Source: an uncultured Gammaproteobacteria bacterium
GTDB lineage: Bacteria; Patescibacteriota; Microgenomatia; Levybacterales; UBA12049
Assembly: GCA_964507055.1 (NCBI GenBank)
Contig: CAZDOJ010000001.1
Location: 721,313-785,312 of the forward strand
Reading direction: 5' to 3'
Length of the DNA: 64,000 bases
Positions 1 through 34,087 of this stretch are shown here, in pieces (position 1 is the first letter of the stretch; the number at the start of each line of letters is the position of its first letter). The notes below the pieces were generated by a model. It was given only the letters and a program-made list of their open reading frames with translations, was not told where the DNA came from and did not search any database. Position numbers and translations under genes: made by a program.

Positions 1-631
1 TAATTCCTGCATTGGATAAATGATAAGTTCCATACTTATCAGTTTCGATTAGCTTTTTAATACCTTCTACCAGATCCAAGGAATATGTAGGCGTACTTAC
101 CTCATCTTTAACCAATTCAATTTTTTTATCTTTTATCGCTTTGTTTAAGACTGCATGGATAAAATTAGAATTCCATTTGCTATAAAGCCAAGAAGTTCGC
201 ACAATAAAATGCTTCTTAACTTTTTCTTTAATAATTTTTTCTGCTTCTAATTTCGTTTTACCAACAATTGTAATGGGATTTGGTTTATCATCTTCATGAT
301 AGGGAGTTTTCTTTTTTCCATCAAATACTTCATTTGTGCTAACGAGCAAAACAGCAGCATCAATCTCTGCAGCTGCTTCCGCAACATATTTTGTACCGTT
401 CACATTTATGTCATATGCTTTATCTGGATGTAATGCACATTCATCGCCTCGTGTGAGTGATGCAAAGTGAAAAATAATATCAGGTTTGAATGCTTTAATC
501 TGTTTATCAACTATTTTTTTGTCAGTAATATCAAGATTCTCTCGGGTGCCAAAAAACAAATCTTTTTGTGGATATATTTCAGCAATTGTTTTCGCTAACT
601 GCCCATTTGCTCCTGTTATAAATATCTTCAT
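1..631 (-). CDS. rfbD: dTDP-4-dehydrorhamnose reductase (RmlD/RfbD), 3' end truncated by window edge
   Basis: Not in ORF track because it runs off the window. Manual translation from ATG (complement of 629-631): MKIFITGANGQLAKTIAEIYPQKDLFFGTRENLDITDKKIVDKQIKAFKPDIIFHFASLTRGDECALHPDKAYDINVNGTKYVAEAAAEIDAAVLLVSTNEVFDGKKKTPYHEDDKPNPITIVGKTKLEAEKIIKEKVKKHFIVRTSWLYSKWNSNFIHAVLNKAIKDKKIELVKDEVSTPTYS... N-terminal Rossmann GxxGxxG (ITGANGQLA); overall RmlD-like order of motifs. Confidence 0.7.
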   Translation of the reverse strand, partial: MKIFITGANGQLAKTIAEIYPQKDLFFGTRENLDITDKKIVDKQIKAFKPDIIFHFASLTRGDECALHPDKAYDINVNGTKYVAEAAAEIDAAVLLVSTNEVFDGKKKTPYHEDDKPNPITIVGKTKLEAEKIIKEKVKKHFIVRTSWLYSKWNSNFIHAVLNKAIKDKKIELVKDEVSTPTYSLDLVEGIKKLIETDKYGTYHLSNAGI

Positions 632-727
632 AGAAAAACTTGATTGTAACTTAATATAACAAATTAAAGCTCAAATTGATAGTAGTGCCTCATGTATGAA
701 GAGGATGAACGAATAGCAAATTTATAA

Positions 728-1420
728 TTAGGAGATCTTTCGAAACTTAAGAAAGATATTATGGAATCCATCTTTGGAATACTCCATATCTTCCTTTTTC
801 AAGAAGAATTCTTGAAAAAATGGCTTTCGTCTAAAAATCCATTTCGACACATATGTGTTCAATTGTGAAAGGACAGTCCATCCTCCAGCAGTAACAACAC
901 ATTCTTCTATTGCAAACTTATTTTTTGTAGCATAACTAAGAAAATCTTTTTCTGTATAATGCCTGTGTCCTATTAACCAGAACGCTGGATCAAGAGAAGT
1001 AGAAATGAATGAACGATAAGGTGTAGAAAGATAAAACACTCCATTCTTTTTCAAAACTCGATGAACCTCTTTAAAGAATTTGTGCTCTGTATTTTGAGGA
1101 ATATGTTCAATAACTTCCCAAGAAACAATTGTGTCAGCACTCTTATCTTTAAACGGCAGATCGATTGCACTACCTACCTTTGTCGAAAAATTCTTATTCT
1201 TAATGTTTTCATTTATTGTCTTTAAATCTTCTTCAGATATTTCTATACCTACAATACTTTTAGGTTTTTTCTTAAATGCATGCAGCTCAAACCAACCATA
1301 TCCACAACCTACATTGATTATTGATTTATTTGTAATATCTTTAACATCTACAAAAGAAAGTGTTTTTTTTAATCTTCCAGTTAATCTTTTATCTGGCTTT
1401 TCGTTTAGTATATTCTTCAT
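728..1420 (-). CDS. class I SAM-dependent methyltransferase (Methyltransf_11/25-like)
   Basis: Motif I 'IINVGCGYGWF', motif post-I acidic 'VGIEISEE', 'GVFYLSTP' motif; 230 aa. Confidence 0.65.
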   Translation of the reverse strand: MKNILNEKPDKRLTGRLKKTLSFVDVKDITNKSIINVGCGYGWFELHAFKKKPKSIVGIEISEEDLKTINENIKNKNFSTKVGSAIDLPFKDKSADTIVSWEVIEHIPQNTEHKFFKEVHRVLKKNGVFYLSTPYRSFISTSLDPAFWLIGHRHYTEKDFLSYATKNKFAIEECVVTAGGWTVLSQLNTYVSKWIFRRKPFFQEFFLKKEDMEYSKDGFHNIFLKFRKIS

Positions 1421-2259
1421 AATTTAGATACCAGTAATCCAATTCCGCCTGAGGAGAATTCAAGTCCTTTTAATACTACTGAACCGATTCCCACAGTTGG
1501 ATTTTTCAAAAATGCTGAACGATTTCGGTAGTAGCACTTAACCTCTTCCAAAAGAAGACTTTGACCAGAGACATTATGTTTTTTGAAATAACTTCCAGCG
1601 GTTTTTCCATAACTAAATTTCTTGTAAATCATTCTACCCAACTTAAGATAGCCTAAGTTGTGATAAACAACATTTTTACAGTACCCTATTTTGCTAATTG
1701 CCTTGTATCTTCTATGTGTATCAAAGTCTTCACCAGAACTTAATTTCTCATCATATCCTCCAACCTTTTTAAAGATTTGAGTTCGGACAAGTCTAGCCGA
1801 TTCAATATTGTCATTACCCCAATAACATTTTCGCTCAAATGCTTTACATTTACTCCAGTAACCATTTGTAATATCCTCCTCATGAACAATCAGTGCCCCA
1901 ATTTCTTTTTCTTGCATAAATATTTTTGCTGCTTCAGTAAGTAATCCTTTAGACAAAATCATATCGCTATCTAAATGATAAAGGATACTTCCCTTTGCTG
2001 CACTTGCACCCTTGTTACGAGATTTTGTTGGTGGAGAATAAAATTTCGGTTTTTGAAGAGTTATTAACTTTACTTTATTTTTGTGGACTATAGATGGTGT
2101 TTCATCAGTGCTCGTTTGGTCTACAACAATAACTTCAATATTTTTATACGTCTGTTTTTTAATAGAATCCAAACATGCTTGTAAATATTTCTGGCTATTG
2201 TATGTAGGAATAATTACGGATATTAGAGGAAGTTTTTCAGACATGATTATGTAAAACAA
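1417..2259 (-). CDS. glycosyltransferase family 2
   Basis: 'ISVIIPTYNSQKYLQACLDSIKKQTY' GT-A N-terminus and DxD 'DSDM'; 4-bp overlap with downstream gene. Confidence 0.75.
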   Translation of the reverse strand: MFYIIMSEKLPLISVIIPTYNSQKYLQACLDSIKKQTYKNIEVIVVDQTSTDETPSIVHKNKVKLITLQKPKFYSPPTKSRNKGASAAKGSILYHLDSDMILSKGLLTEAAKIFMQEKEIGALIVHEEDITNGYWSKCKAFERKCYWGNDNIESARLVRTQIFKKVGGYDEKLSSGEDFDTHRRYKAISKIGYCKNVVYHNLGYLKLGRMIYKKFSYGKTAGSYFKKHNVSGQSLLLEEVKCYYRNRSAFLKNPTVGIGSVVLKGLEFSSGGIGLLVSKL

Positions 2260-2321
2260 TATTTAGCCAGTTTATGATACTATTATTCATAGTTTAATAC
2301 AAGAGATAACTTCTTATTTCG

Positions 2322-4946
2322 ATGGATTTATTAATTTTTTCAGAGCTTATATCAAGTAATAATTTCTTTTTACTTTTAAGTCATTATTTTTCGTTTTTTG
2401 TTCCATTTAGTGGACTAGGTATTTATCTGCAAGGAGTACCAACTGCAAATATCTTGGATTTTTTTTGGGGAACAAATGCAGGACTAAGAACACTTCCATT
2501 GCTTTTTTTCCTATCGATACTTCAGTATGTTTTTCAGAATAATTGGAGTACTGCTTATTTGGCTATTTCAATTGTACTGCCATTTATTACATTCTTAATT
2601 GCATGTCGATTTCTGGGAAAACTTTCGCTATTTAATTTTATAGGTGCAATGTTCTATGGAGGAAATGTGTGGATTATTAATAGAATTTTTACGGGATTTT
2701 GGCAATTAAATTTGAGTTACGCATTTCTTCCTTTTCTCATTGTAATTCCATTACGATTAGTTTCTACCAAAGTTCATATAACTGAACTATTATTTCTTGT
2801 TTGTATTTATAGTATTGCAGCAAGCTTTGTGCTTATTTCTCAGCCTCATTTTCTTATTATTACTATACTTTTTGCCGTATTTCAATTTATACAATGTTGC
2901 ATTTCTAAAGATACTGACGCTCTCAAAAGATTGCTTATTTTCTATTTACCATCTGCATTTCTTTTCTTTTGCATCAATGCTTATTTTTTTATACCTGGGA
3001 TATTCTTTCCTGAAAAACTATTTACGGCACCAAATCAATACTTTTCAATAGGATCTGTCATATTCAACGGTCAAGGAAATTTAATCGAACACGTTCTTCG
3101 ATTTGAACCTTTAGGACAATCTTCTCAAAATTTTACATGGACATGGATAAACTTTATACAGTTTATACCTATTCTGTTATTTCTTATCATTTTTCTTATC
3201 AATAAAAACCGACAATATATATATTTACTGCTTGTTTTACTATTTATTTTTTTTGCAAAAGGTTTAAATGAACCTTTTGCTGATATTAGTAGATGGATTT
3301 ATCAAAACATCTTTTTTATGCATTATTTCCGCGATCCAGCAAGATTTATCGCTGGCGTTGTACTTTTTTCTTCAATGAGCATTGCAACATTTCATATAAA
3401 GAAAAAGCTTCCAAAAAAATTGCAACTACTTATAGTTGCTAGCACTATTTTACTTTTTATAACCATTAACATTAACTCGTTCTATCCACCAAAAACGGAT
3501 ATCTTTAAATCTACGAGTATCCCCAAAGAGTATCTTAACCTACAGAAATTTATTGCAAATGATCCTCGTATTGATGCACAACAGCGACTATTAATTCTTC
3601 CAAATAGACATGGATTACAGGGCTACCCTTGGTATACAAATCCTTCTCCAAATACATCCAACACCATATTCGATGCCATCCTACCATTAGAAATTTCTTT
3701 AGCAAATAGCTCAAATTACCCAGATAACTATTCGAATCAAATTAGTGCTTATATTTATGAAGAGTATACGAAAACTTATGATGAAAAGTTACTTATACCG
3801 CTCGGAGTACAATATGTTCTTATAGATGAATCGATTATTAAGCCGCAACTAGAAAAGGATATAGCTACGAGTTCTGCACAGGCATTATTAAACAATCCAG
3901 CGTATCAAAGAGTCTTTTATGAAAAGCCACTTAGTCTTTTTAAAGTGAATACTCAAGCAACTCTTTTTAGCGACCAGAAACCAGTTTTTGCCATTGGTAA
4001 TTTAGCAACAATCACTAAACAATATGTTTCTGGTATCGAAAGACCAACTATTCTCCTTAATCAACCTATTAATAGGGATTTAATAAATAATTCATATTTA
4101 AAAGACAGGGAAATTTTAATTGATGTAAAGAATCCACTTTTAACTATTACGGCAGAATCACTTGCTGAAAAGTATTTTGTGGATATATTAAAGGCTGGAT
4201 GGGATTATGACAAGATTTTTGGAAATTATGAACCATATAAGATGAAATCGGTCATAACTAATGGACAACTCTTTACCAGTGGAAGAGCCGTCGTTTCGCA
4301 ACCTAAAAATGGATTCATGCATATAAATCATGATCTAGAACCCGGAACATATAAAATCCTAATTAAAGCTCTTTCAGAATTCGATAGTGTGGGGATAGAA
4401 CTAGCAGCAGGAAACAAAAAAAACATTCAAGTGGATACAAGTAATCAGCTACTTTGGATCGATGCTGGAACAATTAAAATTGACAAAAAGCAGTCATATA
4501 TAACATTAACAAAAACAGATAGTAATCCTTTAGTAATTGATTATCTACTTTTAGTTCCTGAAACAACTTGGAATGAGTCGAAGAATTCAATGAATCAAAT
4601 TCTTCAAAATATGCGTGCTTATCATCCAATAAATACACAAAACTCAATTACTCAATTTACTATGCAAGATAGAGATATTATAGAATTGGGTAAAGCTTAT
4701 CCTTATATTACTGCTCGCATAAGTTACAGCGATTATTGGAGAAGTGACACTCCTTCAGAAAATTTTATAAGCGATGCATATGGAATAACATTCATAGCAA
4801 AAAACATAAACATAAAAAATATAGATTACTATCCAAGTAAAATCTTCAAAGCTTTATTTCTTATAACATTGACTATTGGTATTATTGTCGGTTCTTATTG
4901 TTATTATTTTATTATAAAGAGACTGAAGAACCACTTATTTAAGTAA
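2322..4946 (+). CDS. large polytopic membrane protein with ~550-aa extracytoplasmic C-terminal domain and C-terminal TM anchor (possible GT-C glycosyltransferase/polymerase)
   Basis: About 10-11 hydrophobic helices in first 320 aa, long soluble domain, final hydrophobic helix 'ALFLITLTIGIIVGSYCYYFII'; no recognisable catalytic motif. Confidence 0.45.
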   Translation: MDLLIFSELISSNNFFLLLSHYFSFFVPFSGLGIYLQGVPTANILDFFWGTNAGLRTLPLLFFLSILQYVFQNNWSTAYLAISIVLPFITFLIACRFLGKLSLFNFIGAMFYGGNVWIINRIFTGFWQLNLSYAFLPFLIVIPLRLVSTKVHITELLFLVCIYSIAASFVLISQPHFLIITILFAVFQFIQCCISKDTDALKRLLIFYLPSAFLFFCINAYFFIPGIFFPEKLFTAPNQYFSIGSVIFNGQGNLIEHVLRFEPLGQSSQNFTWTWINFIQFIPILLFLIIFLINKNRQYIYLLLVLLFIFFAKGLNEPFADISRWIYQNIFFMHYFRDPARFIAGVVLFSSMSIATFHIKKKLPKKLQLLIVASTILLFITININSFYPPKTDIFKSTSIPKEYLNLQKFIANDPRIDAQQRLLILPNRHGLQGYPWYTNPSPNTSNTIFDAILPLEISLANSSNYPDNYSNQISAYIYEEYTKTYDEKLLIPLGVQYVLIDESIIKPQLEKDIATSSAQALLNNPAYQRVFYEKPLSLFKVNTQATLFSDQKPVFAIGNLATITKQYVSGIERPTILLNQPINRDLINNSYLKDREILIDVKNPLLTITAESLAEKYFVDILKAGWDYDKIFGNYEPYKMKSVITNGQLFTSGRAVVSQPKNGFMHINHDLEPGTYKILIKALSEFDSVGIELAAGNKKNIQVDTSNQLLWIDAGTIKIDKKQSYITLTKTDSNPLVIDYLLLVPETTWNESKNSMNQILQNMRAYHPINTQNSITQFTMQDRDIIELGKAYPYITARISYSDYWRSDTPSENFISDAYGITFIAKNINIKNIDYYPSKIFKALFLITLTIGIIVGSYCYYFIIKRLKNHLFK

Positions 4947-4972
4947 TTGATTGTATTTGAAATATCTCTTTA

Positions 4973-6097
4973 TTAAAGGTAGGAAGATGTTGCCCTAATT
5001 ATAGTTTTTGAACTTGATCCATATATTCCTACCTGGGCAGCATTAGAAGTACCTGCTTGATAATTTAAGTAATAGGGTGTTTTTGAAGATACTGATAACA
5101 CTTTAGTACGATTAACAGAGTAACCTACTCCTACTGTCCCACCACCTGCAGAATAAGTAATTCCTACTGCTGTAAGATCTGCATCACTTTCGGAATTATT
5201 AGCAGTAGAGAGTGTTGCCAATGCGTGTATTAAACCCGTAGTCCCATATCCCACCACAGCAGCTTGATAACTCGTATCCCAAATACCTATTGGGATATTA
5301 ATCTGTAAAGCATTATACCATGTTCCATATGTTGGATTTGTTGTACCGATGAATGTATTATCCGTTACTTCCACTGTCCATTTGTTTGGATCAAGAGAGA
5401 ATCCAACAGGTGCTTTTTGTGCGGAGAAATAAACAGTGCTAATCGTAGAATTTGCAAGTGTATAATCAGTCCCTCCATAAAGAGTTATTGTTGTATTTGG
5501 AGATGAGTAAGATATACCTGTAATAAGAAAGTATTTTATTGTTGATGATTGAGTAAGCCTGATTCTCATACCTGGAGTGTAAACACCGGTAAGATTTCCA
5601 GATGCAGTAGCAGTGAAGGTAGGCGTATCGGCTGAGGCATACGTCCAAGTCTCGCCAACATTAGTCCAACCACCTGCAATTGCATTTTGAGGTGTATTAG
5701 TGGTTGGTAGAGGTAGAGGATAATTAAGATCCTGACTTGCAAGCCCACTCATCCTTATCTTGACTGTTGTAACTCCATTGTCAGATGCATAGGGGCCTAC
5801 CATAGCAAAACAATGTGAAGATGTACACTCACCCGGGTTATTCGCAAGAGGCTGCCAATAATACACACTATTCGTCGGATCTTTTATTTGAGTAGAGGCT
5901 ATACTAGTCGTAAGATTTGCTCCAGTATAATCCCATTCCAGGCGACCTGTTGTTGGATCAAAAGTTACATTTGTTGCTGTAAAATCACTCGATGCAAATA
6001 CACGTGGCACAAAAGTAAAAATGCTGATGCTTAAAAAACCGAATAGAAGCAAAAGAGAAAAGATTCGAAGATATTTTTGAATCCGAAATTTCTTCAT
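4973..6097 (-). CDS. secreted Ser/Thr/Gly/Tyr/Asn-rich cell-surface protein (hypothetical)
   Basis: N-terminal signal peptide 'RIFSLLLLFGFLSISIFTFVPRVFASS'; mature part is low-complexity S/T/G/Y/N rich with no enzyme motifs. Confidence 0.5.
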   Translation of the reverse strand: MKKFRIQKYLRIFSLLLLFGFLSISIFTFVPRVFASSDFTATNVTFDPTTGRLEWDYTGANLTTSIASTQIKDPTNSVYYWQPLANNPGECTSSHCFAMVGPYASDNGVTTVKIRMSGLASQDLNYPLPLPTTNTPQNAIAGGWTNVGETWTYASADTPTFTATASGNLTGVYTPGMRIRLTQSSTIKYFLITGISYSSPNTTITLYGGTDYTLANSTISTVYFSAQKAPVGFSLDPNKWTVEVTDNTFIGTTNPTYGTWYNALQINIPIGIWDTSYQAAVVGYGTTGLIHALATLSTANNSESDADLTAVGITYSAGGGTVGVGYSVNRTKVLSVSSKTPYYLNYQAGTSNAAQVGIYGSSSKTIIRATSSYL

Positions 6098-7262: not shown

Positions 7263-8086
7263 GAGGATTTTGCAGTTTGGACACTCTCAACATTAAAGTT
7301 CTTTTTATTATTATAGTATTTAAGTATTCTCAATCGATAAAATACCGCGGCTGTGTCCCAAAGCATGAGGAAAATGATTCGCCACATACTGCCCGATGTT
7401 ATACTACCACTTTTAAAGTTTATTTCAACTGGTGCCTCATAAATTCTTTTGTATCCTAATGCATATGACACTGCAAGCATCTCTATATCGAAAGCGTATC
7501 TTTTTACTATTAATCTTGGGAGAACATCTTGCACAACTTTTCTCTTAAAAAATTTGATACCCACTTGTGTATCTCGAACTTTAAATCCAAAGAGTATTCG
7601 GGTAAAAAGACGATACCCCCAGGATAATACTTTTCTAAAAAAAGGATAATTAACTTTTGATGCAGAATGGAGCTTTGATCCAACAATAACGTCAGCGTTA
7701 TACCAAATCATATGATTAAGTAACATAGAAAAACCGACAGTATTTATATCCATCCCGGCATCAATAAATCCAATTACATCGCCTTTTGCTAACAACATCC
7801 CATATCGTATTGCATAACCTTTTCCTTGATTCTGTTTGTATGCAACAGTTTTTACTTTATTTGATTTAATTTTCTTTGTATTTTCAAATGTCTTATCAAC
7901 CAATCCATCCACTACAATTATAATTTCATATTTAAACCCAACGGCATCCAATGTATCTGTAATATTTTTAATATCCCGAACAATAGTTTTTTCCTGTTTG
8001 TAAGCTGGGATTACAACTGAAAGTAAATTAATGGAGAAACTGTCGCGGTTATTCATAGAGGTAGTATAGCAAAAGATTTTTCTCAA
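7259..8086 (-). CDS. glycosyltransferase family 2 (polyprenol-phosphate sugar synthase-like)
   Basis: 'LSVVIPAYKQEKTIVRDI', 'IIIVVDGLVDKT', DxD 'DAGMD'; C-terminal hydrophobic segment. Confidence 0.7.
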   Translation of the reverse strand: MRKIFCYTTSMNNRDSFSINLLSVVIPAYKQEKTIVRDIKNITDTLDAVGFKYEIIIVVDGLVDKTFENTKKIKSNKVKTVAYKQNQGKGYAIRYGMLLAKGDVIGFIDAGMDINTVGFSMLLNHMIWYNADVIVGSKLHSASKVNYPFFRKVLSWGYRLFTRILFGFKVRDTQVGIKFFKRKVVQDVLPRLIVKRYAFDIEMLAVSYALGYKRIYEAPVEINFKSGSITSGSMWRIIFLMLWDTAAVFYRLRILKYYNNKKNFNVESVQTAKSS

Positions 8087-27939: not shown

Positions 27940-29454
27940 TTATTGCTTTAGTTCATACAGTGTGTAATAAGATTCTTTATCTTCTTTTTGAATTTGCAGA
28001 ACCTTTGTGAGTGTCCATGTATCTGGAGCTAAGCCAATCCCTTCGCAAGGAGGACATGGTTGATAAAAGACAACATAAGTTGGCATTGTTTTGCTTGCAT
28101 CGAGTATTTCTTGCGGAGGGGTATCATTTATTGGCCAGTAACCTTGAACTTTTATATTTGGATTCGTGCCAAGATATATATCGAGTGCATATGGCATGAG
28201 GCCAAATGTACCTTGCGTTGCTACATAAATTTTCTCATTTTTTGCTTTCGCTTCGAGAAACTTTACTGTTTCCTTCACGCCATTTCCGGCAGGCCAATCA
28301 GTAACGAATTGTTCTCTATCGCCTTGCGGAATTGCTGCTTTAGAAAAATTAGTCATGATATGAAAATCAGTAACGATCCACATGCCCGTAAATACAACTG
28401 CAATAAGCACTTTTAACCAGCCTGTTTTTACATATGTGAGTAATGTATACAACGAAAATGCACCCAATAAAATAAGCGGCATAGTCATAAAAAGAATAAA
28501 TCGTGGATAGATAACTTTTCCAAAAAACGCCAAAGCCATAAAAGGAACAATAAACCATACAAGTAATAAAAGTTTTTCTCTTGTGTATTTCTTACTGACG
28601 AAGAATGAAGCAAGGACAAGAATAAGGAACGGAAGTGTCATATAACCAATCAACCAACCACTCAAACCTTGTAGGTTGCCAAATACATAAGCAAACGGAT
28701 TCTGGAACCAGTCACTGAATGAATAAATGAACGTAAGATTTTTCTCGCCAATAATATGATAAAAAGGCGACAGTCGTAGAATTGCATAGATTGCCTGAGC
28801 CAATACAAATGCAACTACTGCAAATCCAAACCACTTAAAAAGTTTCTTCCTATCTAACTTTTCTTTGAATGGAAAAAGAAGCAAAGAAAACGGAAGCAAA
28901 ATAAATCCAAAATTTGCACTTGTCTTCGTCAACATTCCTCCTCCAACAATCATCCCCAATAATAATGCTAAGTCTAATCGCACATATCTTGCAAGCAAAA
29001 CGGAGAAATATAATGACCATATGATGAATAAGGCAACCATTGAATCATACAGAGCCATGCGATCATAGACCAAGGCAAACGGGTACAGGACATATAAGAT
29101 GCTCGCTGTTAAACCAATAAACTTATTCTTAAATAGCTCTCTCCCAAGAAGGAACATACCTACCATTGAAGCAAAACCAGTAAAAACAGAGACAAGTCTT
29201 CCTGCAACTAAAGGATCTTTTACAAATTCGATAAGGATCATTGCTGCCCAAATAAATGACGGCTGCTTTCCATCGGTAAGAGAGATAAATCTCCATGTGG
29301 CATCATTATTTGCAATTTGAGCCCAACGGATATAGATGGCCTCATCAGTAAAGATAGGTAGCCCGGTGAGGTTATATAAGCGAGTAAAGAAGTATAATCC
29401 CGCTAACAAAACGAAGAATGTACTGAGATAGAGATGTTTTCTAATATAACGCAT
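27940..29454 (-). CDS. GT39/GT83-family glycosyltransferase (PMT/ArnT-like)
   Basis: 'FTRLYNLTGLPIFTDEAIYIRWAQI' first-loop DE motif, ~11 TM helices plus C-terminal periplasmic domain. Confidence 0.6.
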   Translation of the reverse strand: MRYIRKHLYLSTFFVLLAGLYFFTRLYNLTGLPIFTDEAIYIRWAQIANNDATWRFISLTDGKQPSFIWAAMILIEFVKDPLVAGRLVSVFTGFASMVGMFLLGRELFKNKFIGLTASILYVLYPFALVYDRMALYDSMVALFIIWSLYFSVLLARYVRLDLALLLGMIVGGGMLTKTSANFGFILLPFSLLLFPFKEKLDRKKLFKWFGFAVVAFVLAQAIYAILRLSPFYHIIGEKNLTFIYSFSDWFQNPFAYVFGNLQGLSGWLIGYMTLPFLILVLASFFVSKKYTREKLLLLVWFIVPFMALAFFGKVIYPRFILFMTMPLILLGAFSLYTLLTYVKTGWLKVLIAVVFTGMWIVTDFHIMTNFSKAAIPQGDREQFVTDWPAGNGVKETVKFLEAKAKNEKIYVATQGTFGLMPYALDIYLGTNPNIKVQGYWPINDTPPQEILDASKTMPTYVVFYQPCPPCEGIGLAPDTWTLTKVLQIQKEDKESYYTLYELKQ

Positions 29455-29474
29455 TATGGATATTATACTTAATA

Positions 29475-30929
29475 CTATACCTTTTCAGCAATCAGGTGAT
29501 TCAACCTAACTTTACTAAGAATTACTTCAAGGTCTTTTTTCCTGAACATGTACAATACGTTTAATGTGATCGGAGGAATAAAAATAAGTATATAAGTAAT
29601 GATTGGCCAAATTACTGATTGTGTATTAATCCGATAAATAACCCACAGCAATGGATATGCAAATAAAGATGTAATTGAAAGACCTACTGTAGTTAAGAGC
29701 AACTTTTTATCAAGAACAAGTGGAATTAAAGGCAATATCCAAAGGACATACCAATTCCAATATGCTGTACTAATAAATAATAAATATACTAAGAGTACAA
29801 CGATGTATGCATAGACAGGTTCTATATCATGCTTCCAAACCTGCCACGTAAAATAGAGTAACCATAACAGGAATAAGACAAAAACTACTTGTATTAATTG
29901 CGGCTGGAACAATAGAAGAACTGTAGGTAGCGATTGCCAGTAAACACCACCATTGTATGCAACTCGTTGCAAAAACTCTATAAGATTTACTTGCATAAAC
30001 GAAAATAGTAATGTGTTTATGCTAACGAATCCTGCAACAAAAGAGAGCAATCCAAGATATTTTTTCTTTTTTACTAATGAAAGTAGACAAAAGAAGAATA
30101 AGACAATTGGAATTAATTTTACTTGCACTGCTAGGGCTAAAATTATGCCTGCAAAAAACCATAGCTTCTTACGGAAGAAATAATAACTGAGCAGTGTAAA
30201 GAAAATCATCATACTGTCGTTATGTCCCGAGCCGAATATTTCAAGTATAAAAATTGGATTCCAGAAAACGAATATTAATGCCCAATTTAGATAATTTTTC
30301 TTTTGCTCTTTTAGTACTAAATACAACACATAAAATATCCCAGCTGCAAATAATGCAGGGACCAATTTATAGAGAATAACAAGAGTGACCAAATCATTCT
30401 GTCCAATATACGATGGGAGCAAATATAACAAAAAGTGTATTCCACCATACACACTCGTTGTATCTTTCCAATCTGCTAATACACCAAATTGGTCATCTGG
30501 AAATGTAGCTGGCTTAACTTGCCAAATATTTTCACCATGTACTGTTGCTACACGTTCAGAAAAAATATAAGAGAAAATATCTGTGGATAATATCGGGAAT
30601 GATACAAATGTTACTATTTGGAAAAGTACCGTAAACAGTATTATTTGTTTGAGCGTAAACTTTACCTTGAGAGCAATCAGATATAAAATTACCGCAGCTA
30701 CAGAAACGGCTGCAAATATGATTGTGGGAATAGAATTTAACCCATATCCAGATAATATTGTTTGCATCGAAAAAAGAAAATCTTTTGCTGCTGGATAAAG
30801 ATTTCCAATTCCAATAATTGCTCGAGGGTCTCGAAATAGTAAAACCCATGAGAGGATCAAATATGTAAAAAAACAAAGACTAAGCAAACTAGCAATTATG
30901 ATTGGTAATTGGGATTTATGTAACTTCAT
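29475..30929 (-). CDS. polytopic membrane protein (GT-C-like; possibly DUF2029/GT87-like)
   Basis: 484 aa, entirely hydrophobic multi-pass; no soluble domain. Confidence 0.35.
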   Translation of the reverse strand: MKLHKSQLPIIIASLLSLCFFTYLILSWVLLFRDPRAIIGIGNLYPAAKDFLFSMQTILSGYGLNSIPTIIFAAVSVAAVILYLIALKVKFTLKQIILFTVLFQIVTFVSFPILSTDIFSYIFSERVATVHGENIWQVKPATFPDDQFGVLADWKDTTSVYGGIHFLLYLLPSYIGQNDLVTLVILYKLVPALFAAGIFYVLYLVLKEQKKNYLNWALIFVFWNPIFILEIFGSGHNDSMMIFFTLLSYYFFRKKLWFFAGIILALAVQVKLIPIVLFFFCLLSLVKKKKYLGLLSFVAGFVSINTLLFSFMQVNLIEFLQRVAYNGGVYWQSLPTVLLLFQPQLIQVVFVLFLLWLLYFTWQVWKHDIEPVYAYIVVLLVYLLFISTAYWNWYVLWILPLIPLVLDKKLLLTTVGLSITSLFAYPLLWVIYRINTQSVIWPIITYILIFIPPITLNVLYMFRKKDLEVILSKVRLNHLIAEKV

Positions 30930-32100
30930 GTTTTTTAATTTTATACAAAATTAGCCAGACTGTTAAAGTATACATAAATGGAATAATTAGAAGGAAGTAT
31001 CGTGACCAAACAGGAATAAATGAAAGAAATAGGAGATAGATGATAATCCATATACATGGGAATACTATCATCGATTTGCGATATTTTCTAAAAACAAAAA
31101 CTATAGTTATTGCTGAAATTACGGTAAGTAAAATCCATCCAAAATGCCATTCATCCACAACAGATATTTGCCCCCACCAATTAGCATATTTACCGGTAAA
31201 TATAATTTCCCATGGAGCTGAGAAAGACCCTTTCGCACCTCCGGCATAAAAATTGATAATCCATTTTTGAACGCCTAGAAAATCCATAAATGAATTGCCT
31301 AACAAAAAGTATTGGATATAAGTAGCAACAAACACTATACCTGCAATCGGCAGTGTCATAATATACTTTTTAACTAGTTTGAGTTGCTTCGTGACAACTA
31401 AATAAAGCACAATTGCCCCTATAACGAGAGGAAATGTAGATGCTGTAGATTTAGTTGCAGCCATGAGACCAAGAACAACAGCAGAAGCAAAATACTTTTT
31501 TTTCAGGAAGAAGTAGCAGATCATGAAGAATAGTCCAATATATAAAAGATCTAACAAAGATATTTGAAGTTGTGTAAAAAATAACGGTTCAAAAGAAAGT
31601 AATAAGACTGGAATAAAGGCTGCTAATTTACTCTTAAAGAATAATGTATTAACGAGATAAAAAGCATATAAAGCAAACAGTCCACTTAATAATGCAAAGA
31701 TATTCTGATTCTTAAAAATAAGCTCAGATAAACCAATAAGATACTTTCCAAGGGGTGGAATTTCTGCATTTAAAAGGGTCGGGTCTTTGCCATGAATGTA
31801 TTCCCATCCTGCATATGTATATACACCATCATCGCCTATGGCATTTTTTTTGAGATCAGCTGCTGCTGCATTATTCTTATTCTGTTCAAACCATTGATCG
31901 TCCCAAATACATGTGTAGGGATTTACATGCGGATCCAAATTTTCACATGCAGGTTTGGTGCTCCATTGAGAATTCTCATACTTTAGCTTCCAATAATCTG
32001 CATTAAAAGGGGTAAGATAATCAGTTCTATATTCATATATTCTGAATGCAATATGTACCGCAAAAAGAATCAGTAAACCAATAAATACTTTCTTTCTCAT
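30916..32100 (-). CDS. membrane protein with Cys-containing N-terminal extracytoplasmic segment (unknown)
   Basis: Signal-anchor followed by 'PACENLDPHVNPYTCIWDDQW' segment and ~9 TM helices. Confidence 0.35.
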   Translation of the reverse strand: MRKKVFIGLLILFAVHIAFRIYEYRTDYLTPFNADYWKLKYENSQWSTKPACENLDPHVNPYTCIWDDQWFEQNKNNAAAADLKKNAIGDDGVYTYAGWEYIHGKDPTLLNAEIPPLGKYLIGLSELIFKNQNIFALLSGLFALYAFYLVNTLFFKSKLAAFIPVLLLSFEPLFFTQLQISLLDLLYIGLFFMICYFFLKKKYFASAVVLGLMAATKSTASTFPLVIGAIVLYLVVTKQLKLVKKYIMTLPIAGIVFVATYIQYFLLGNSFMDFLGVQKWIINFYAGGAKGSFSAPWEIIFTGKYANWWGQISVVDEWHFGWILLTVISAITIVFVFRKYRKSMIVFPCIWIIIYLLFLSFIPVWSRYFLLIIPFMYTLTVWLILYKIKKHEVT

Positions 32101-33329
32101 TTCTTTTTCTTTCGTTTAACTTGACGTGCAAAAAGTATTTGCTTGTAAAAAAAGTAGGCGGTAATAATAAGAAATGCTAAAGTATAACTCAAGAAATTCA
32201 TATCTAAAAGAATTTGAGGTATTGGCTTATCCCAGTTACCCGTAAAAAGGAATGGTACATAATTCATCAAGGAGAAAAATGACACAATGACAGCTGGAAT
32301 TAGCACATAATATCGATAGGAAATGAGTGCAGCAAAAGCTAAAACATCAATAAGATACCACGGCTGAAATGTACCTCTATATGATTGTGCCGCCGCTCCC
32401 CCAATAAGAAGTATTACTGCTATGCCAATAATAAAACCCCATTTTCGATGAATCTTCTCGGCCTTCATTCGGTGGATAACGACAAATAGTGGTAATAAAA
32501 CAGCTGTGACAAATTTTATTGCAATGGAAAGAAATAGTAGCCCATACGCTTTACCATGTTTTTCTATAATCATAAAATAGAATGCCCAAAGGGCAAAAAA
32601 CATCATGACAATGTCAATGTGAGGACTTACAACACTTTCTATAAGCATCAGTGGATTTAATCCAAAGAAAATAAGCCCCATTACTTCTCGTTCCGGAGCA
32701 ATCGTCTTTAATATTTTTCCAATAAAGAATACTGAACCGATGAAACAAGCTATCATTAACAATTTAAAAAGGAAAAATGTTGGCAAAAAGAATTGCAAAC
32801 CTATGAAAGAAAGAGGTACTGTAATCACCAACCAGAACGGACCATATGGATATTCTCGATGGGTCCAACGCATAAATGAAAGCATCGGATCCTCAGGATA
32901 ATCTAGAGCTTTTTGTACATAAGGATTGTCTCCATAATGAGTTATAATCTTTGCATCAAATATATAATTAAAAATATCATAGGAAAAAGCGTTGTAGGAA
33001 AAGGTAAGAATAATTGTGGCTGCACCAATCAAAATCCACGTAAACTTTTTTTGAATCTTCTTTTTGGTAGCTAGTCTTAAAAAGATTACATAAAAGACAA
33101 AAAGGATCACAACAAGTGAAACAAAAAGGGTTGCAGAAAGAGGCCTGTCAAAATATCCAATCTGTTGAAAAGAGCGTACAATTTCCTGAAGTGCTTCATT
33201 TCGAGAGAGAGCCAAACTTAAATCAATTTGTGTAAAACTGTAGAAGAATAATCCAACAAGCGGGACACAATAAAAGAAAAGGATTAAATATTCTTTTAAT
33301 GATAAATTTTTAAATAGTGTTTTCACCAT
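32097..33329 (-). CDS. polytopic membrane protein (GT-C-like; possibly DUF2029/GT87-like)
   Basis: 410 aa multi-pass; 4-bp overlap with downstream gene; ends with KKKK tail. Confidence 0.35.
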   Translation of the reverse strand: MVKTLFKNLSLKEYLILFFYCVPLVGLFFYSFTQIDLSLALSRNEALQEIVRSFQQIGYFDRPLSATLFVSLVVILFVFYVIFLRLATKKKIQKKFTWILIGAATIILTFSYNAFSYDIFNYIFDAKIITHYGDNPYVQKALDYPEDPMLSFMRWTHREYPYGPFWLVITVPLSFIGLQFFLPTFFLFKLLMIACFIGSVFFIGKILKTIAPEREVMGLIFFGLNPLMLIESVVSPHIDIVMMFFALWAFYFMIIEKHGKAYGLLFLSIAIKFVTAVLLPLFVVIHRMKAEKIHRKWGFIIGIAVILLIGGAAAQSYRGTFQPWYLIDVLAFAALISYRYYVLIPAVIVSFFSLMNYVPFLFTGNWDKPIPQILLDMNFLSYTLAFLIITAYFFYKQILFARQVKRKKKK

Positions 33330-34087
33330 TAATTATATCTTCCTGCAAGTACATTTCTTTTAATTTTTACAAGATCTTTTACTCCCTGAATCGCATCGCG
33401 TACAGGATTAACTCTTCTCGTCTCTACATGAAGCCAATTTACATGAACTTCTTTTATTTTATAGCCATGATTTCTTGCAATGTAGAGAATCTCAATATCT
33501 GATCCAAAAGTAATTGCTGTCCCCTTAACTTTCTCAAAACCATTTTTTAGAACTTTTAATTTATTAAATACATCGTCCGCTGCTTTTGCAGTAAACAATT
33601 TAAATCCACATTGTGTGTCTGTTATATCATTAATGCCTATTATCATTTTTCTCATAATGATTGCACTTCGAGAAATAAATAAACGTATCTCCGGAGCACC
33701 TTTTCGCTGCGTACTTCTCGAACCAATGGCGATATCATAGTCTCCACTTTCAAGATATGGTAGTAAATTATTAACTTCTTCAATAGGAGTAGCCTGATCC
33801 ATATCAGTAAAAAGACGGTACTCACCTTGTGCTTTCAACATGCCGGTAGTAACAGCACCAGCTTTTCCATAGTGAGGGTTTTTAATTAAGATAAAATGAG
33901 GATTTTCTTTTATAAATTTTTCGATAAACTCGACGCTACCGTCTCTCGATCCATCATCAGCGATGATTACTTCGTAGGAAATCTTTTTCTTTTCAAGAAA
34001 ATGCTGTACTTTTTCAAGCACACCTTTCTGGAGATTAGCCATCTCATCATAGCAAGGAATAACAACAGAAAGAAATATTTTCTTCAC
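33329..34087 (-). CDS. GT2 dolichyl/polyprenyl-phosphate beta-glucosyltransferase-like (ALG5/DPM1 family)
   Basis: 'LSVVIPCYDEMANLQKGV', 'VIIADDGSRDGS', 'RLFTDMDQATPIEEV'. Confidence 0.75.
   Translation of the reverse strand: MKKIFLSVVIPCYDEMANLQKGVLEKVQHFLEKKKISYEVIIADDGSRDGSVEFIEKFIKENPHFILIKNPHYGKAGAVTTGMLKAQGEYRLFTDMDQATPIEEVNNLLPYLESGDYDIAIGSRSTQRKGAPEIRLFISRSAIIMRKMIIGINDITDTQCGFKLFTAKAADDVFNKLKVLKNGFEKVKGTAITFGSDIEILYIARNHGYKIKEVHVNWLHVETRRVNPVRDAIQGVKDLVKIKRNVLAGRYN

What the first reader, a model, noticed from the sequence alone, without database searches (positions are those of the whole stretch)
1..34087. 34-kb unidirectional glycosylation mega-locus dominated by GT-C membrane enzymes paired with polyprenol-phosphate-sugar synthases
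- Twenty-eight of 29 genes are on the minus strand with many 4-bp/14-bp overlaps.
- Content: rmlD, two galE, 9 GT2 (at least 4 clearly DPM1/ALG5/GtrB-like lipid-monosaccharide synthases), 4 GT4, 2 Wzx flippases, and at least 11 polytopic GT-C-like proteins including 3 clear GT39 PMT/ArnT-like paralogs.
- This composition points to extracytoplasmic glycosylation that uses lipid-linked monosaccharide donors. It is a protein O-mannosylation-like or S-layer/cell-wall glycan decoration system rather than a classical Wzy O-antigen cluster.
- The number of distinct GT-C paralogs in one operon-like array is unusual, and most of them have no recognisable family.
Basis: partly seen in the sequence, partly recalled or inferred. 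Interest (0 to 1): 0.6.

Follow-up and report, generated by a model that had tools for sequence, protein, structure and literature searches.

The report
Giant surface-sugar assembly gene cluster
An uncultured small-genome bacterium (Patescibacteria/CPR, Microgenomates group) carries a nearly one-directional gene array of more than 34 kb that most likely builds cell-surface sugars outside the membrane, using at least ten GT-C membrane enzymes and four lipid-sugar synthases; the chemistry is known, the scale is unusual, and three of the enzyme families match no Pfam or NCBIfam family.

Summary
Window 1-34087 has 29 genes, 27 on the minus strand. They are a partial RmlD, two GalE-like epimerases, a SAM methyltransferase, 8 GT2, 3 GT4, 2 Wzx/MOP flippases, 10 polytopic GT-C-type proteins, one secreted Thr/Ser-rich protein and one DUF5652 gene.

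Four GT2 match DPMS, GtrB and ArnC over their full length. Six polytopic proteins hit GT-C Pfam families (one GT87 hit is below cut-off). The other four (A-D) were tested here:
- C folds like STT3, DPY19, AglB and PglB (pLDDT 94.8).
- A folds like AftD.
- D is a divergent PMT.
- B links to the others only by profile comparison.

The locus is larger than reported. A B paralogue lies at 38461-40047, and the source contig continues at least 10 kb past the window start with two more GT-C-like genes.

Sub-modules recur in 32 Patescibacteria species genomes, so this is a lineage trait. No priming phosphoglycosyltransferase, Wzy or WaaL, or GtrA was found.

Best reading: two Wzx-dependent oligosaccharide modules plus extracytoplasmic elaboration from polyprenol-phosphate sugars. 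The acceptor (wall polymer or lipoglycan versus protein) is unresolved. It is a new variant of a known kind.

The parts
2..631 (-). RmlD (dTDP-4-dehydrorhamnose reductase), N-terminal 210 aa; the gene runs off the window start
   Evidence: Pfam RmlD_sub_bind E 3.4e-60. The full 277-aa gene is on the source contig, L040.
728..1420 (-). SAM-dependent methyltransferase
   Evidence: Pfam Methyltransf_11 E 8e-20. Homologues sit next to GT2a in related loci.
1417..2259 (-). GT2 (GT2a), not of the lipid-sugar-synthase type
   Evidence: Pfam Glycos_transf_2 E 8.5e-26. The PDB profile groups it with GmaR, TarS and SunS-type GT-A enzymes.
2322..4946 (+). Protein A: GT-C with AftD-like architecture (N-terminal polytopic domain, large outer domain with a CBM-like beta-sandwich, C-terminal TM helix)
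   Evidence: No Pfam or PDB sequence hit. AF2 pLDDT 74.9. Foldseek: AftD 6w98_A E 1.7e-10, then STT3 and ArnT; the C-terminal part resembles CBM6/35/61. Only 11 homologues found. Same position and opposite strand in L037 and L038.
4973..6097 (-). Secreted or anchored 374-aa Thr/Ser/Gly-rich protein (T 15%, S 10%, 7 N-x-S/T sequons); not a conserved member of the locus
   Evidence: Translation and composition. No Pfam hit. Absent beside A homologues in L037 and L038 and absent from all 32 related loci.
6162..7262 (-). GT4 glycosyltransferase (module I)
   Evidence: Pfam Glycos_transf_1 E 3.7e-35. Syntenic in L008, L009, L010 and L011.
7259..8086 (-). GT2b: polyprenol-phosphate sugar synthase-like GT2 (module I)
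   Evidence: Pfam GT2. Profile of the four short GT2 hits DPMS 5mlz 6e-29, GtrB 5ekp 1e-27 and ArnC 4e-25 over the full length. NCBIfam AglJ, PpgS and DolP-hexose transferase, all below cut-off.
8096..9355 (-). Wzx/MOP-type flippase (module I); start refined to Met43 (419 aa)
   Evidence: Pfam Polysacc_synt_3 E 5.6e-18 and Polysacc_synt E 1e-14. The 419-aa gene call on L040. Start codons listed.
9357..10412 (-). GT4 glycosyltransferase (module I)
   Evidence: Pfam Glycos_transf_1 E 1.5e-29. Syntenic in more than 15 related loci.
10428..11396 (-). GalE-like UDP-sugar 4-epimerase
   Evidence: Pfam Epimerase E 6.6e-53.
11466..12434 (-). GalE-like UDP-sugar 4-epimerase (second copy)
   Evidence: Pfam Epimerase E 2e-64.
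12480..14015 (-). Protein B: probable GT-C of a family with no Pfam match (511 aa; invariant W45, D47, R50, D51 just after TM1)
   Evidence: More than 276 homologues, none with a precomputed Pfam domain and no Pfam hit in the 52 members scanned. hhalign to C 77% and to D 80%. Paralogue x522 links to PTPS at 93.6% and to D at 88.5%. No structure was predicted.
14005..14916 (-). GT2c glycosyltransferase (cytoplasmic GT-A type)
   Evidence: Pfam GT2 E 5e-19. Profile hit to GmaR 3e-23. Syntenic next to C in many loci.
14873..16504 (-). PMT_2-family GT-C with a DE motif after TM1
   Evidence: Pfam PMT_2 E 5.5e-11. NCBIfam TIGR03663 (Agl23) E 1.4e-13, below cut-off. Sequence.
16464..18122 (-). PMT_2-family GT-C, paralogue of the previous gene (30% identity)
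   Evidence: Pfam PMT_2 E 3.4e-8. BLASTP E 7e-52 to 14873-16504.
18141..18866 (-). GT2d: polyprenol-phosphate sugar synthase-like GT2
   Evidence: Pfam GT2 E 3.7e-36. PDB profile hits DPMS, GtrB and ArnC. Best NCBIfam hit is AglJ at E 7e-37, 127 bits against a cut-off of 325.
18874..20886 (-). Protein C: GT-C of a family with no Pfam gathering-level match (670 aa; invariant D141)
   Evidence: No Pfam or PDB sequence hit. AF2 pLDDT 94.8. Foldseek hits: STT3 1.2e-8, DPY19 3e-7, AglB, PglB, AftA, ArnT. 84 homologues. Found in 32 species genomes.
20935..22005 (-). GT4 glycosyltransferase (module II)
   Evidence: Pfam Glycos_transf_1 E 1.2e-20. Synteny.
22075..22332 (+). DUF5652 small two-helix membrane protein; it interrupts the minus-strand array
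   Evidence: ORF listing. Pfam DUF5652 E 4.4e-25.
22333..23091 (-). GT2e glycosyltransferase (module II)
   Evidence: Pfam GT2 E 1.6e-17. Synteny.
23156..24070 (-). GT2f glycosyltransferase (module II)
   Evidence: Pfam GT2 E 9.6e-24. Synteny.
24067..25509 (-). Wzx/MOP-type flippase (module II)
   Evidence: Pfam Polysacc_synt_3 E 4e-44. NCBIfam MOP flippase family E 5e-33, below cut-off.
25496..26227 (-). GT2g: polyprenol-phosphate sugar synthase-like GT2
   Evidence: Pfam GT2 E 1.8e-29. PDB profile. NCBIfam AglJ, ArnC and PpgS, below cut-off.
26199..27938 (-). PTPS_related-family GT-C (HDD motif after TM1)
   Evidence: Pfam PF10131 E 3.8e-7, 29.4 bits against a cut-off of 26.4. hhalign to a PMT_2 profile at 96.9%, E 1.8e-10.
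27940..29454 (-). PMT_2/PMT-family GT-C with a DE motif
   Evidence: Pfam PMT_2 E 3.7e-9. Pfam PMT 24.2 bits against a cut-off of 22.7.
29475..30929 (-). GT87/MptA-B-like GT-C
   Evidence: Pfam GT87 E 2.8e-7, 31 bits against a cut-off of 25. Precomputed PF26314 MptA_B_family. TIGR03459 E 7e-12, below cut-off.
30916..32100 (-). Protein D: short, divergent PMT-like GT-C (invariant D90; PPLGK motif)
   Evidence: No Pfam hit itself. 24 of 61 family members hit PMT_2 and 15 hit PMT. The family profile hits yeast Pmt2 6p25_B at E 1e-3. hhalign to a PMT_2 profile at 96.6%.
32097..33329 (-). GT87-like GT-C (weaker)
   Evidence: Pfam GT87 22.1 bits, below the cut-off of 25. TIGR03459 E 1e-12. 28% identity, E 4e-14, to 29475-30929.
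33329..34087 (-). GT2h: polyprenol-phosphate sugar synthase-like GT2; first gene of the array
   Evidence: Pfam GT2 E 1.4e-25. PDB profile. NCBIfam.
38461..40047 (-). B2: second B-family polytopic protein, outside the reported interval (motif YYDQARD...GPSSDIPG)
   Evidence: BLASTP to B: 24% identity over about 490 aa, E 2e-14. No Pfam hit.

Best explanation
This is a lineage-conserved cell-envelope glycan assembly supercluster of a Microgenomates (Patescibacteria/CPR) bacterium.

**Proposed mechanism**
1. Nucleotide sugars are supplied or converted by RmlD and two GalE-like epimerases. A methyltransferase modifies sugars.
2. Four soluble DPMS/GtrB/ArnC-like GT2 enzymes charge polyprenol phosphate with single sugars on the cytoplasmic face.
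3. Seven cytoplasmic GT-A and GT-B enzymes (4 GT2, 3 GT4) build lipid-linked oligosaccharides. They fall in two conserved modules, each with its own Wzx/MOP flippase.
4. The lipid-linked sugars are flipped to the outer face.
5. Outside, at least ten GT-C enzymes extend and branch a polymer, using the polyprenol-phosphate sugars as donors. These are 3 PMT_2, 1 short PMT-like, 2 GT87/Mpt-like, 1 PTPS_related, 1 AftD-like with a CBM-like domain, and the families B and C.

The product is a wall-associated polysaccharide or lipoglycan. The logic is that of mycobacterial lipomannan, LAM and arabinogalactan assembly.

**Shown:** fold and family identity of the parts, their order and packing, and their conservation in relatives.

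**Inferred:** donors, flipping substrates, order of action, and that the acceptor is a glycopolymer rather than protein.
For: **GT-C identity**
- Pfam PMT_2, PMT, GT87 and PTPS_related hits.
- AF2 plus Foldseek for C: the top 16 hits are all GT-C enzymes, with STT3 at 1.2e-8.
- AF2 plus Foldseek for A: AftD at 1.7e-10, plus a CBM-like beta-sandwich.
- D and PTPS match a PMT_2 profile at 96.6% and 96.9%.
- B links to C, D and PTPS at 77-94%.
- Conserved acidic residues lie just after a TM helix: D141 in C, D47/D51 in B, D90 in D. The PMT_2 paralogues carry a DE motif.

**Donor synthases**
- Full-length profile matches to DPMS 6e-29, GtrB 1e-27 and ArnC 4e-25.
- NCBIfam hits to AglJ, PpgS and DolP-hexose transferase.

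**Polysaccharide leaning**
- GT87/MptA_B-type enzymes.
- The AftD-like enzyme with a carbohydrate-binding-like domain.
- An LCP (LytR-CpsA-Psr)-like ORF beside the PTPS gene in 3 related loci. I judged this by eye from the sequence only.
- Ten transferases against four donor synthases matches the many-enzymes-per-donor pattern of mycobacteria described in PMC11127046.

**Conservation**
- Modules I and II recur in 32 Patescibacteria species genomes.
- A homologues keep the same position in L037 and L038.

**Packing**
- 4-bp and 14-bp overlaps indicate co-transcription and co-translation.
Against: - No acceptor evidence of any kind.
- No LCP ligase, priming phosphoglycosyltransferase or polymer exporter in the window.
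- The modules occur apart in relatives, so they may serve different products.
- All named-family matches (AglJ, MptA, Agl23) are far below curated cut-offs, so sugar and linkage specificity are unknown.
- B's fold rests on profile comparisons only.
- A's model is of moderate quality (pLDDT 74.9, with the N-terminal 56 residues low).
- C resembles oligosaccharyltransferases most, which fits a protein acceptor equally well.
Confidence: 0.45

Rival explanations
1. This is a protein glycosylation system for S-layer, pilin or other surface proteins, working like the archaeal Agl pathway. An AglJ-like GT2 primes polyprenol monophosphate and soluble GTs extend it. An AglR-like MOP flippase flips it. 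Protein C, which has an STT3/AglB-like fold, transfers the glycan to protein. PMT_2-type GT-Cs add final sugars from polyprenol-P-sugars (AglS-like), or they O-glycosylate Ser/Thr directly (Pmt-like).
For: - The composition mirrors the Haloferax Agl cluster as described in PMC3871713: AglJ/AglD-type GT2, soluble GTs, an AglR-type flippase, the AglS GT-C, the AglP methyltransferase and the AglB OST.
- The best NCBIfam hit of GT2d is AglJ at E 7e-37.
- PMT_14873 hits the Agl23 family at E 1.4e-13.
- C's best structural matches are STT3, AglB and PglB, including the AglB C-terminal globular domain.
- No priming phosphoglycosyltransferase is present in the window or recurrent in related loci. This fits monophosphate priming.
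- A Thr/Ser-rich secreted protein with 7 sequons lies inside the locus.
Against: - C lacks the WWDYG motif that defines STT3, AglB and PglB (sequence, consensus).
- TM-scores are only 0.40-0.47, and C matches DPY19, AftA and ArnT nearly as well.
- All Agl-family scores are far below cut-off.
- The secreted protein is not conserved with the locus.
- No PMT_4TMC domain is present.
- Ten or more GT-Cs is far more than any known protein-glycosylation pathway uses.
Confidence: 0.25
2. This is a glyco-island: a mosaic of several independent Ppgt + GT-C decoration systems and two separate Wzx-dependent oligosaccharide pathways. They sit side by side but act on different targets, giving surface variability, for example for phage or host interaction. 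There is no single pathway.
For: - Modules I and II lie in different places or orders in relatives. C sits in module I in some genomes and in module II in others.
- A has only 11 homologues, and the secreted protein is lineage-specific.
- The array is broken by two plus-strand genes, so there are at least three transcription units.
- Each of the four donor synthases sits next to a different set of GT-Cs.
Against: - Tight overlaps link genes of different types across long stretches.
- The same gene orders persist across genera.
- Only two flippases serve all components.
Confidence: 0.2
3. This is a classical Wzx/Wzy-dependent capsule or O-antigen-like cluster. On this view the unassigned polytopic proteins are Wzy polymerases or WaaL-type ligases, not GT-C transferases.
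For: - Two Wzx-type flippases, GT4 and GT2 enzymes, and rmlD and galE genes are typical of such clusters.
Against: - No Wzy_C or O-antigen ligase Pfam hit in any protein.
- The A and C models match GT-C enzymes, and no Wzy, WaaL or SEDS structure is among the top 50 hits.
- D and PTPS are homologous to PMT_2.
- There is no priming phosphoglycosyltransferase and no chain-length regulator.
Confidence: 0.05

Closest known systems
Mycobacterial and corynebacterial arabinogalactan, lipomannan and LAM machinery (EmbA/B/C, AftA-D, PimE, MptA/MptB, fed by polyprenol-P-mannose and decaprenyl-P-arabinose)
   Same: - Many different GT-C enzymes, partly clustered, build a polysaccharide outside the membrane from a few polyprenol-phosphate sugar donors (PMC11127046).
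- Protein A's best structural match is AftD, and A also has a CBM-like domain.
- Two proteins hit GT87/MptA_B and TIGR03459.
   Different: - Similarity is at fold or family level only, and scores are far below the equivalog cut-offs.
- No UbiA-type DPPR synthase or DprE genes were seen.
- Here the GT-Cs are interleaved with two Wzx modules.
- The host is a Patescibacteria genome of about 1.3 Mb (the longest contig that carries these genes is 1,318,932 bp).
Three-component extracytoplasmic glycosylation systems (GtrA/GtrB/Gtr*, ArnC/ArnEF/ArnT, CsbB/GtcA/YfhO, Citrobacter ORF15/ORF14/ORF12)
   Same: - A GT2 polyprenol-phosphate sugar synthase is paired with a GT-C transferase, and a flippase is encoded in the locus (definition in PMC11127046).
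- The four short GT2 match GtrB and ArnC over their full length.
   Different: - No GtrA or SMR-type small flippase is present. Gene packing leaves no room for one.
- The only flippase candidates are two MOP/Wzx proteins.
- There are 10 or more GT-Cs for 4 synthases, rather than 1 to 1.
- The synthases lack the C-terminal TM helices of GtrB and ArnC (they are 241-275 aa; sequences).
Haloferax volcanii Agl N-glycosylation cluster (AglJ/G/I/E/D, AglR, AglS, AglB, AglP)
   Same: - It has the same parts list: DPM1-like GT2, soluble GTs, a MOP-type flippase, a PMT_2-like GT-C, an STT3-fold enzyme, a methyltransferase and sugar-nucleotide enzymes.
- No pyrophosphate-forming priming enzyme is needed (PMC3871713).
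- The best named NCBIfam hits are AglJ and Agl23.
   Different: - Protein C lacks WWDYG and is not an AglB/STT3 family member by sequence.
- All Agl-family scores are below cut-off.
- The host is a bacterium, and it has many more GT-Cs.
Actinobacterial Ppm1/Pmt protein O-mannosylation (GT39)
   Same: - PMT_2/PMT Pfam hits with the DE motif after TM1.
- Adjacent DPM1-like GT2 genes.
   Different: - There is no PMT_4TMC domain.
- Only 27940-29454 reaches the PMT model, and barely (24.2 bits against a cut-off of 22.7).
- There are four paralogues rather than one.
- The CAZy family (GT39 versus GT83) could not be assigned with these tools.

Membership tests
GT-C glycosyltransferase superfamily (fold level) | Polytopic membrane domain of about 7-13 TM helices | tested here: met
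   - Hydropathy segments for all ten proteins.
- Helix maps of the AF2 models of C and A.
GT-C glycosyltransferase superfamily (fold level) | Structural or profile similarity to solved or curated GT-C enzymes | tested here: met
   - C matches STT3, DPY19, AglB, PglB, AftA and ArnT.
- A matches AftD, STT3 and ArnT.
- Six proteins have Pfam hits to PMT_2, PMT, GT87 or PTPS_related; five are above cut-off and the GT87 hit of 32097-33329 is below it.
- D and PTPS match a PMT_2 profile at 96.6% and 96.9%.
- B is linked only by hhalign at 77-94%. For B alone this is inconclusive.
GT-C glycosyltransferase superfamily (fold level) | Conserved acidic residue(s) in the extracytoplasmic loop after an early TM helix | tested here: met
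   - Invariant D141 in C, D47/D51 in B and D90 in D.
- DE in the three PMT_2 proteins, HDD in PTPS, and D in the GT87-like 'TDIFSY' and 'YDIFNY' motifs.
- The outside location is inferred from positively charged N-termini. No topology predictor was run.
GT-C glycosyltransferase superfamily (fold level) | Use of polyprenol-phosphate-linked sugar donors | not testable with these tools
   This needs enzyme assays. Only the co-located DPMS/GtrB/ArnC-like GT2 genes support it.
Protein O-mannosyltransferase Pmt (GT39, strict sense) | PMT domain (PF02366) above cut-off plus the C-terminal PMT_4TMC domain | tested here: not met
   - Only 27940-29454 hits PMT, at 24.2 bits against a cut-off of 22.7. 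The other two hit PMT_2 only.
- PMT_4TMC was not reported for any protein.
Oligosaccharyltransferase STT3/AglB/PglB (for protein C) | WWDYG motif in the C-terminal outer domain | tested here: not met
   No WWDYG in C or in the family consensus; the nearest string is 'EWWLRMQVYE'.
Oligosaccharyltransferase STT3/AglB/PglB (for protein C) | Overall fold similarity, including the C-terminal globular domain | tested here: met
   - The top Foldseek hit is yeast STT3 at E 1.2e-8, TM 0.44-0.47.
- The AglB C-terminal domain 3vu0 matches at probability 1.00, E 0.05.
- Similarity to DPY19 and AftA is nearly as high.
Gtr-type three-component glycosylation system | GT2 polyprenol-phosphate sugar synthase | tested here: met
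   Four GT2 match DPMS, GtrB and ArnC over their full length.
Gtr-type three-component glycosylation system | Small GtrA or SMR-type flippase | tested here: not met
   - No such Pfam hit.
- Intergenic gaps leave no room except the 327-bp gap, which holds the DUF5652 gene.
- Two MOP/Wzx proteins are present instead.
Wzx/Wzy-dependent O-antigen or capsule cluster | Wzy polymerase or WaaL-type ligase, and a priming phosphoglycosyltransferase | tested here: not met
   - No Wzy_C, WecA/MraY-type or WbaP/PglC-type hit in any window gene scanned.
- None was recurrent in related loci, judged by eye from cluster representatives.
GT87 (PimE/MptA/MptB-type mannosyltransferases) | Pfam GT87 hit above the gathering score | tested here: met
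   - 29475-30929 scores 31 bits against a cut-off of 25 and has a precomputed MptA_B_family hit.
- 32097-33329 scores only 22.1 bits, which is inconclusive. It is 28% identical to the former.
- No PDB sequence match.
AftD-type arabinofuranosyltransferase (for protein A) | Sequence-family membership | tested here: not met
   No Pfam, NCBIfam or PDB sequence match for A or its 10 homologues. The similarity is structural only.

The most novel reading that the evidence does not exclude
Microgenomates build their main surface glycoconjugate by an archaeal/eukaryote-style polyprenol-monophosphate pathway, with no pyrophosphate-forming priming enzyme. Protein C, which has an STT3/AglB-like fold but lacks WWDYG, would then be a new class of bacterial en-bloc oligosaccharyl transferase. 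Families A, B and C would be three new CAZy-level GT-C families so far seen only in Patescibacteria-labelled or unlabelled metagenome records.
Probability: 0.15. Interest if true: 0.8.

Novelty: new variant of a known kind. Interest (0 to 1): 0.6.

Why it matters
- CPR/Patescibacteria genome papers note only that these genomes carry 'many glycosyltransferases', and one states that the make-up of the cell envelope remains unclear (PMC5220378; PMC7143001).
- This locus is conserved across Levyi-, Woese-, Roizman- and Cerribacteria-type genomes. Counting the extension past the window start, it takes up roughly 4% of an approximately 1.3-Mb genome.
- It gives a concrete, testable parts list for how the surface is made: four lipid-sugar synthases, two flippases and 10-13 outside-acting transferases.
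- It defines three polytopic families (A, B, C) with no Pfam or NCBIfam match. Two of them now have models pointing to the GT-C fold.
- These families are candidates for new CAZy families, and they are targets for understanding epibiont-host or phage-surface interactions.

Tried and rejected
- **Sequence searches of the PDB.** The profiles of A, B, C and PTPS and the single sequence of GT87_29475 gave nothing useful. Only D reached yeast Pmt2, at E 1e-3.
- **Genome scan.** The full 64-sequence C alignment was too diverse for the scan. A 17-sequence subset worked.
- **Direct profile comparisons.** hhalign of A against C found nothing. B against the PMT_2 profile also found nothing. B's assignment therefore rests on indirect links.
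- **Secreted protein as a conserved partner or substrate of A.** Rejected. The protein at 4973-6097 is absent beside A homologues and absent from all related loci.
- **The 327-bp gap.** The promoter and terminator scan gave no more than chance. The gap holds a DUF5652 gene.
- **Other window-wide scans.** Rfam at gathering threshold found nothing. One tRNA was found.
- **Literature.** Four searches for a described CPR GT-C or glycosylation locus found none. The library is open-access only, so this is weak negative evidence.
- **Structure-prediction cap.** Only two models were allowed, so B, PTPS and the GT87 and PMT_2 proteins were not modelled.

Full report
**1. What is in the sequence**

Window 1-34087 is AT-rich (GC about 0.31-0.36) with a steadily negative GC skew. 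ORF listing, translation and Pfam/NCBIfam scans give 29 genes, 27 of them on the minus strand.

In transcription order, from 34087 down:
- GT2h, GT87-like, D, GT87/MptA_B-like, PMT_2/PMT, PTPS_related, GT2g, Wzx, GT2f, GT2e
- the plus-strand DUF5652 gene at 22075-22332, in the only large gap
- GT4, C, GT2d, PMT_2, PMT_2, GT2c, B, GalE, GalE, GT4, Wzx, GT2b, GT4, a secreted Thr/Ser-rich protein
- A on the plus strand at 2322-4946
- GT2a, a SAM methyltransferase, and RmlD, which is cut by the window edge

There are four 4-bp and two 14-bp overlaps plus other short overlaps. The strand bias has a two-sided binomial P of 1.6e-6.

| Item | Reader | Found here |
|---|---|---|
| Genes on the minus strand | 28 of 29 | 27 of 29 |
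| GT2 | 9 | 8 |
| GT4 | 4 | 3 |
| Polytopic GT-C-like proteins in the interval | at least 11 | 10 |

The observation itself is correct.

**2. Are the membrane proteins GT-C?**

All ten are polytopic.

Six hit GT-C Pfam families:
- PMT_2 three times, one of which also hits PMT just above its cut-off
- GT87 twice, one above and one below the cut-off
- PTPS_related once

The other four had no Pfam, NCBIfam or PDB sequence match.

*Protein C.*
- It has 84 homologues, aligned.
- Its AF2 model is excellent (pLDDT 94.8, pTM 0.94).
- Its top 16 Foldseek PDB hits are all GT-C enzymes: STT3 1.2e-8, DPY19 3e-7, AglB, PglB, AftA 8e-6 and ArnT 1e-3.

*Protein A.*
- It has only 11 homologues.
- Its model is of moderate quality (pLDDT 74.9).
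- Its best match is mycobacterial AftD (E 1.7e-10 over 917 columns), followed by STT3 and ArnT.
- Its C-terminal beta-sandwich resembles CBM6, CBM35 and CBM61 modules.

*Protein D.*
- It has 718 cluster representatives.
- It is a short, divergent PMT. Of 61 family members, 24 hit PMT_2 and 15 hit PMT.
- The family profile reaches yeast Pmt2 through the PPLGK motif.
- It matches a bona fide PMT_2 profile, built from 40 syntenic homologues, at 96.6%.

*PTPS_related.* The family matches the same PMT_2 profile at 96.9%.

*Protein B.*
- It has more than 276 homologues. None carries a precomputed Pfam domain, and none of the 52 members scanned hit a Pfam family.
- It is the weakest case. hhalign gives 77% to C and 80% to D.
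- A paralogue on the source contig links to PTPS at 93.6% and to D at 88.5%.

*Shared catalytic feature.* Conserved acidic residues lie just after an early TM helix, as expected for GT-C enzymes:
- D141 in C, D47/D51 in B and D90 in D
- DE in the PMT_2 proteins and HDD in PTPS

No Wzy, WaaL or SEDS structure appears among the top 50 hits for A or C.

**3. The cytoplasmic glycosyltransferases**

The four short GT2 are at 18141, 25496, 33329 and 7259.
- They align with each other.
- As a profile they match Pyrococcus DPMS (6e-29), Synechocystis GtrB (1e-27) and ArnC (4e-25) over essentially their full length.
- Their best NCBIfam names are AglJ, PpgS, dolichyl-phosphate hexose transferase and ArnC. 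All are far below the curated cut-offs.

They are therefore polyprenol-phosphate sugar synthase-like, with unknown sugar specificity.

The other four GT2 group with GmaR, TarS and SunS-type GT-A enzymes. There are also three GT4. The two MOP flippases hit Polysacc_synt and Polysacc_synt_3.

**4. The locus is bigger than reported**

- A second B-family gene lies at 38461-40047 (E 2e-14 to B).
- The window start truncates the cluster. On the source contig (Logan SRR14271343, 159,869 bp), the same strand continues past RmlD with several more genes:
  - a GT2, a GT4 and a hexapeptide acyltransferase
  - a 714-aa A-like protein (hhalign 96.8% to A)
  - a 353-aa membrane protein
  - a 522-aa B-family protein (99.9% to B)
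  - another GT4
- That makes about 13 GT-C-type genes in roughly 55 kb.
- The longest contig that carries these genes is 1,318,932 bp.

**5. Relatives**

C homologues were found in 32 species-representative genomes.
- Those with meaningful names are Patescibacteria: Levyibacteriota, Woesebacteria, Cerribacteria and 'Patescibacteria group'.
- Several TPA MAG records are titled 'uncultured Gammaproteobacteria' or 'uncultured Pseudomonadales' but show the same synteny. I treat those labels as unreliable.

Annotating the flanks with the window's proteins shows two recurring modules:
- **Module I:** PMT x2-3, C, GT2c, GalE, GT4, Wzx, GT2b, GT4.
- **Module II:** PTPS, Wzx, (C), GT2f, GT2e, GT4.

The window fuses both modules, with C at the junction.

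- Related loci of about 22 kb carry a median of about 4 GT-C genes, against 10 per 34 kb here. The density is a lineage trait.
- A homologues keep the same position and opposite strand in L037 and L038.
- The secreted protein at 4973-6097 is not conserved there.
- No priming phosphoglycosyltransferase appears in the window. None appears among recurrent unassigned neighbours either. Those include more polytopic proteins and, in 3 loci, an LCP-like ORF that I judged by eye.

**6. How it most likely works**

*Shown:* the fold and family identities, the gene order and the conservation.

*Inferred:*
- The four short GT2 make polyprenol-P-monosaccharides.
- The 7 other GT2 and GT4 assemble lipid-linked oligosaccharides in two modules.
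- The two MOP flippases export these, possibly also the monosaccharide carriers, as proposed for AglR (PMC3871713).
- The 10-13 GT-Cs then extend and branch a glycan outside the membrane.

I favour a wall polysaccharide or lipoglycan acceptor (0.45), for three reasons:
- the GT87/Mpt-like enzymes
- the AftD-like enzyme with a CBM-like domain
- the ratio of many transferases to few donor synthases, the pattern described for mycobacteria (PMC11127046)

Rivals:
- **An Agl-like protein glycosylation pathway with C as the transferase (0.25).** It is supported by the parts list, the AglJ and Agl23 best hits and the lack of a priming enzyme. It is weakened by the absent WWDYG motif and sub-threshold scores.
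- **A mosaic of independent decoration systems (0.2).**
- **A classical Wzy cluster (0.05).**

**7. Comparison with known systems, and novelty**

- The locus works like three-component Gtr/Arn/YfhO systems and like mycobacterial envelope assembly.
- It is not a member of any of them. There is no GtrA/SMR flippase, no PMT_4TMC domain, no WWDYG motif, and no equivalog-level score.
- CPR genome papers I could read mention only '20' or '29 glycosyltransferases', and one states that the envelope make-up is unclear.
- I found no description of this locus type. The search covers only an open-access library.
- Verdict: a new variant of a known kind, with three polytopic families that match no Pfam or NCBIfam family. 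Interest 0.6.

Noticed in passing
window 38461-40047 (-): A 528-aa polytopic protein with no Pfam hit is a paralogue of protein B (24% identity, E 2e-14; motif YYDQARD...GPSSDIPG). It is an 11th GT-C-like gene, lying outside the reported interval.
   Followed up: yes
L040 (source contig beyond window position 1), L040:10790-20693: The glycosylation array continues at least 10 kb past the window start. It holds the full RmlD, a GT2, a GT4, a hexapeptide acyltransferase, a 714-aa A-like protein, a 353-aa membrane protein, a 522-aa B-family protein and another GT4.
   Followed up: partly
window 22075-22332 (+): An 85-aa two-helix DUF5652 protein (Pfam E 4.4e-25) sits alone on the plus strand, in the only large gap of the array. 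Its function is unknown. It splits the minus-strand array into separate transcription units.
   Followed up: partly
window 41113-43062 (-): A 649-aa Acyl_transf_3 membrane O-acyltransferase with a long C-terminal extension. It might O-acylate a surface glycan or peptidoglycan.
   Followed up: no
window 4973-6097 (-): A 374-aa protein with a signal or anchor sequence is very rich in Thr (15%) and Ser (10%) and has 7 N-x-S/T sequons. It is embedded in the locus but absent from related loci. It is a possible glycoprotein, with no homology evidence.
   Followed up: partly
window 52526-53420 (-): A sortase gene (52526-53134) lies next to a 60-aa secreted Thr/Asn-rich peptide (53238-53420) that ends in ...APATGNRAY. 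This could be an unusual sortase substrate.
   Followed up: no
window 53800-54800 (+): A run of small stress-type genes, named by eye from their sequences: a KGG-repeat-like protein, a GlsB/YeaQ-like membrane protein and a YtxH-like protein. Each is preceded by a near-identical strong ribosome-binding stretch (GGAAAGGAGGTGA), which was reported as a 3-copy direct repeat.
   Followed up: no
window 60438-63239 (-): A 933-aa protein has only a sigma-70 region 4 / LuxR-type HTH near residue 300 and an HTH_40 near residue 770. This is an unusually large regulator-like protein. The neighbouring 409-aa acidic protein (59148-60377) has no Pfam hit.
   Followed up: no
window 1-64000: GC skew is negative in nearly every 2-kb bin (cumulative -1.70), including the 34-64 kb part where gene strands are mixed. 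A paper on a complete Microgenomates genome reports unusual strand composition disparity (PMC7143001). This was not analysed here.
   Followed up: no
L005-L036 record titles: Many MAG records that carry this Patescibacteria-type synteny are titled 'uncultured Gammaproteobacteria' or 'uncultured Pseudomonadales'. These are probably wrong taxonomic labels in the deposited records.
   Followed up: no
window 45614-46867 (+) and 56814-58433 (-): A GH5 cellulase-family protein and an alpha-amylase-family protein lie downstream of the locus. Another paper notes that Microgenomates carry relatively many glycoside hydrolases (PMC7143001).
   Followed up: no
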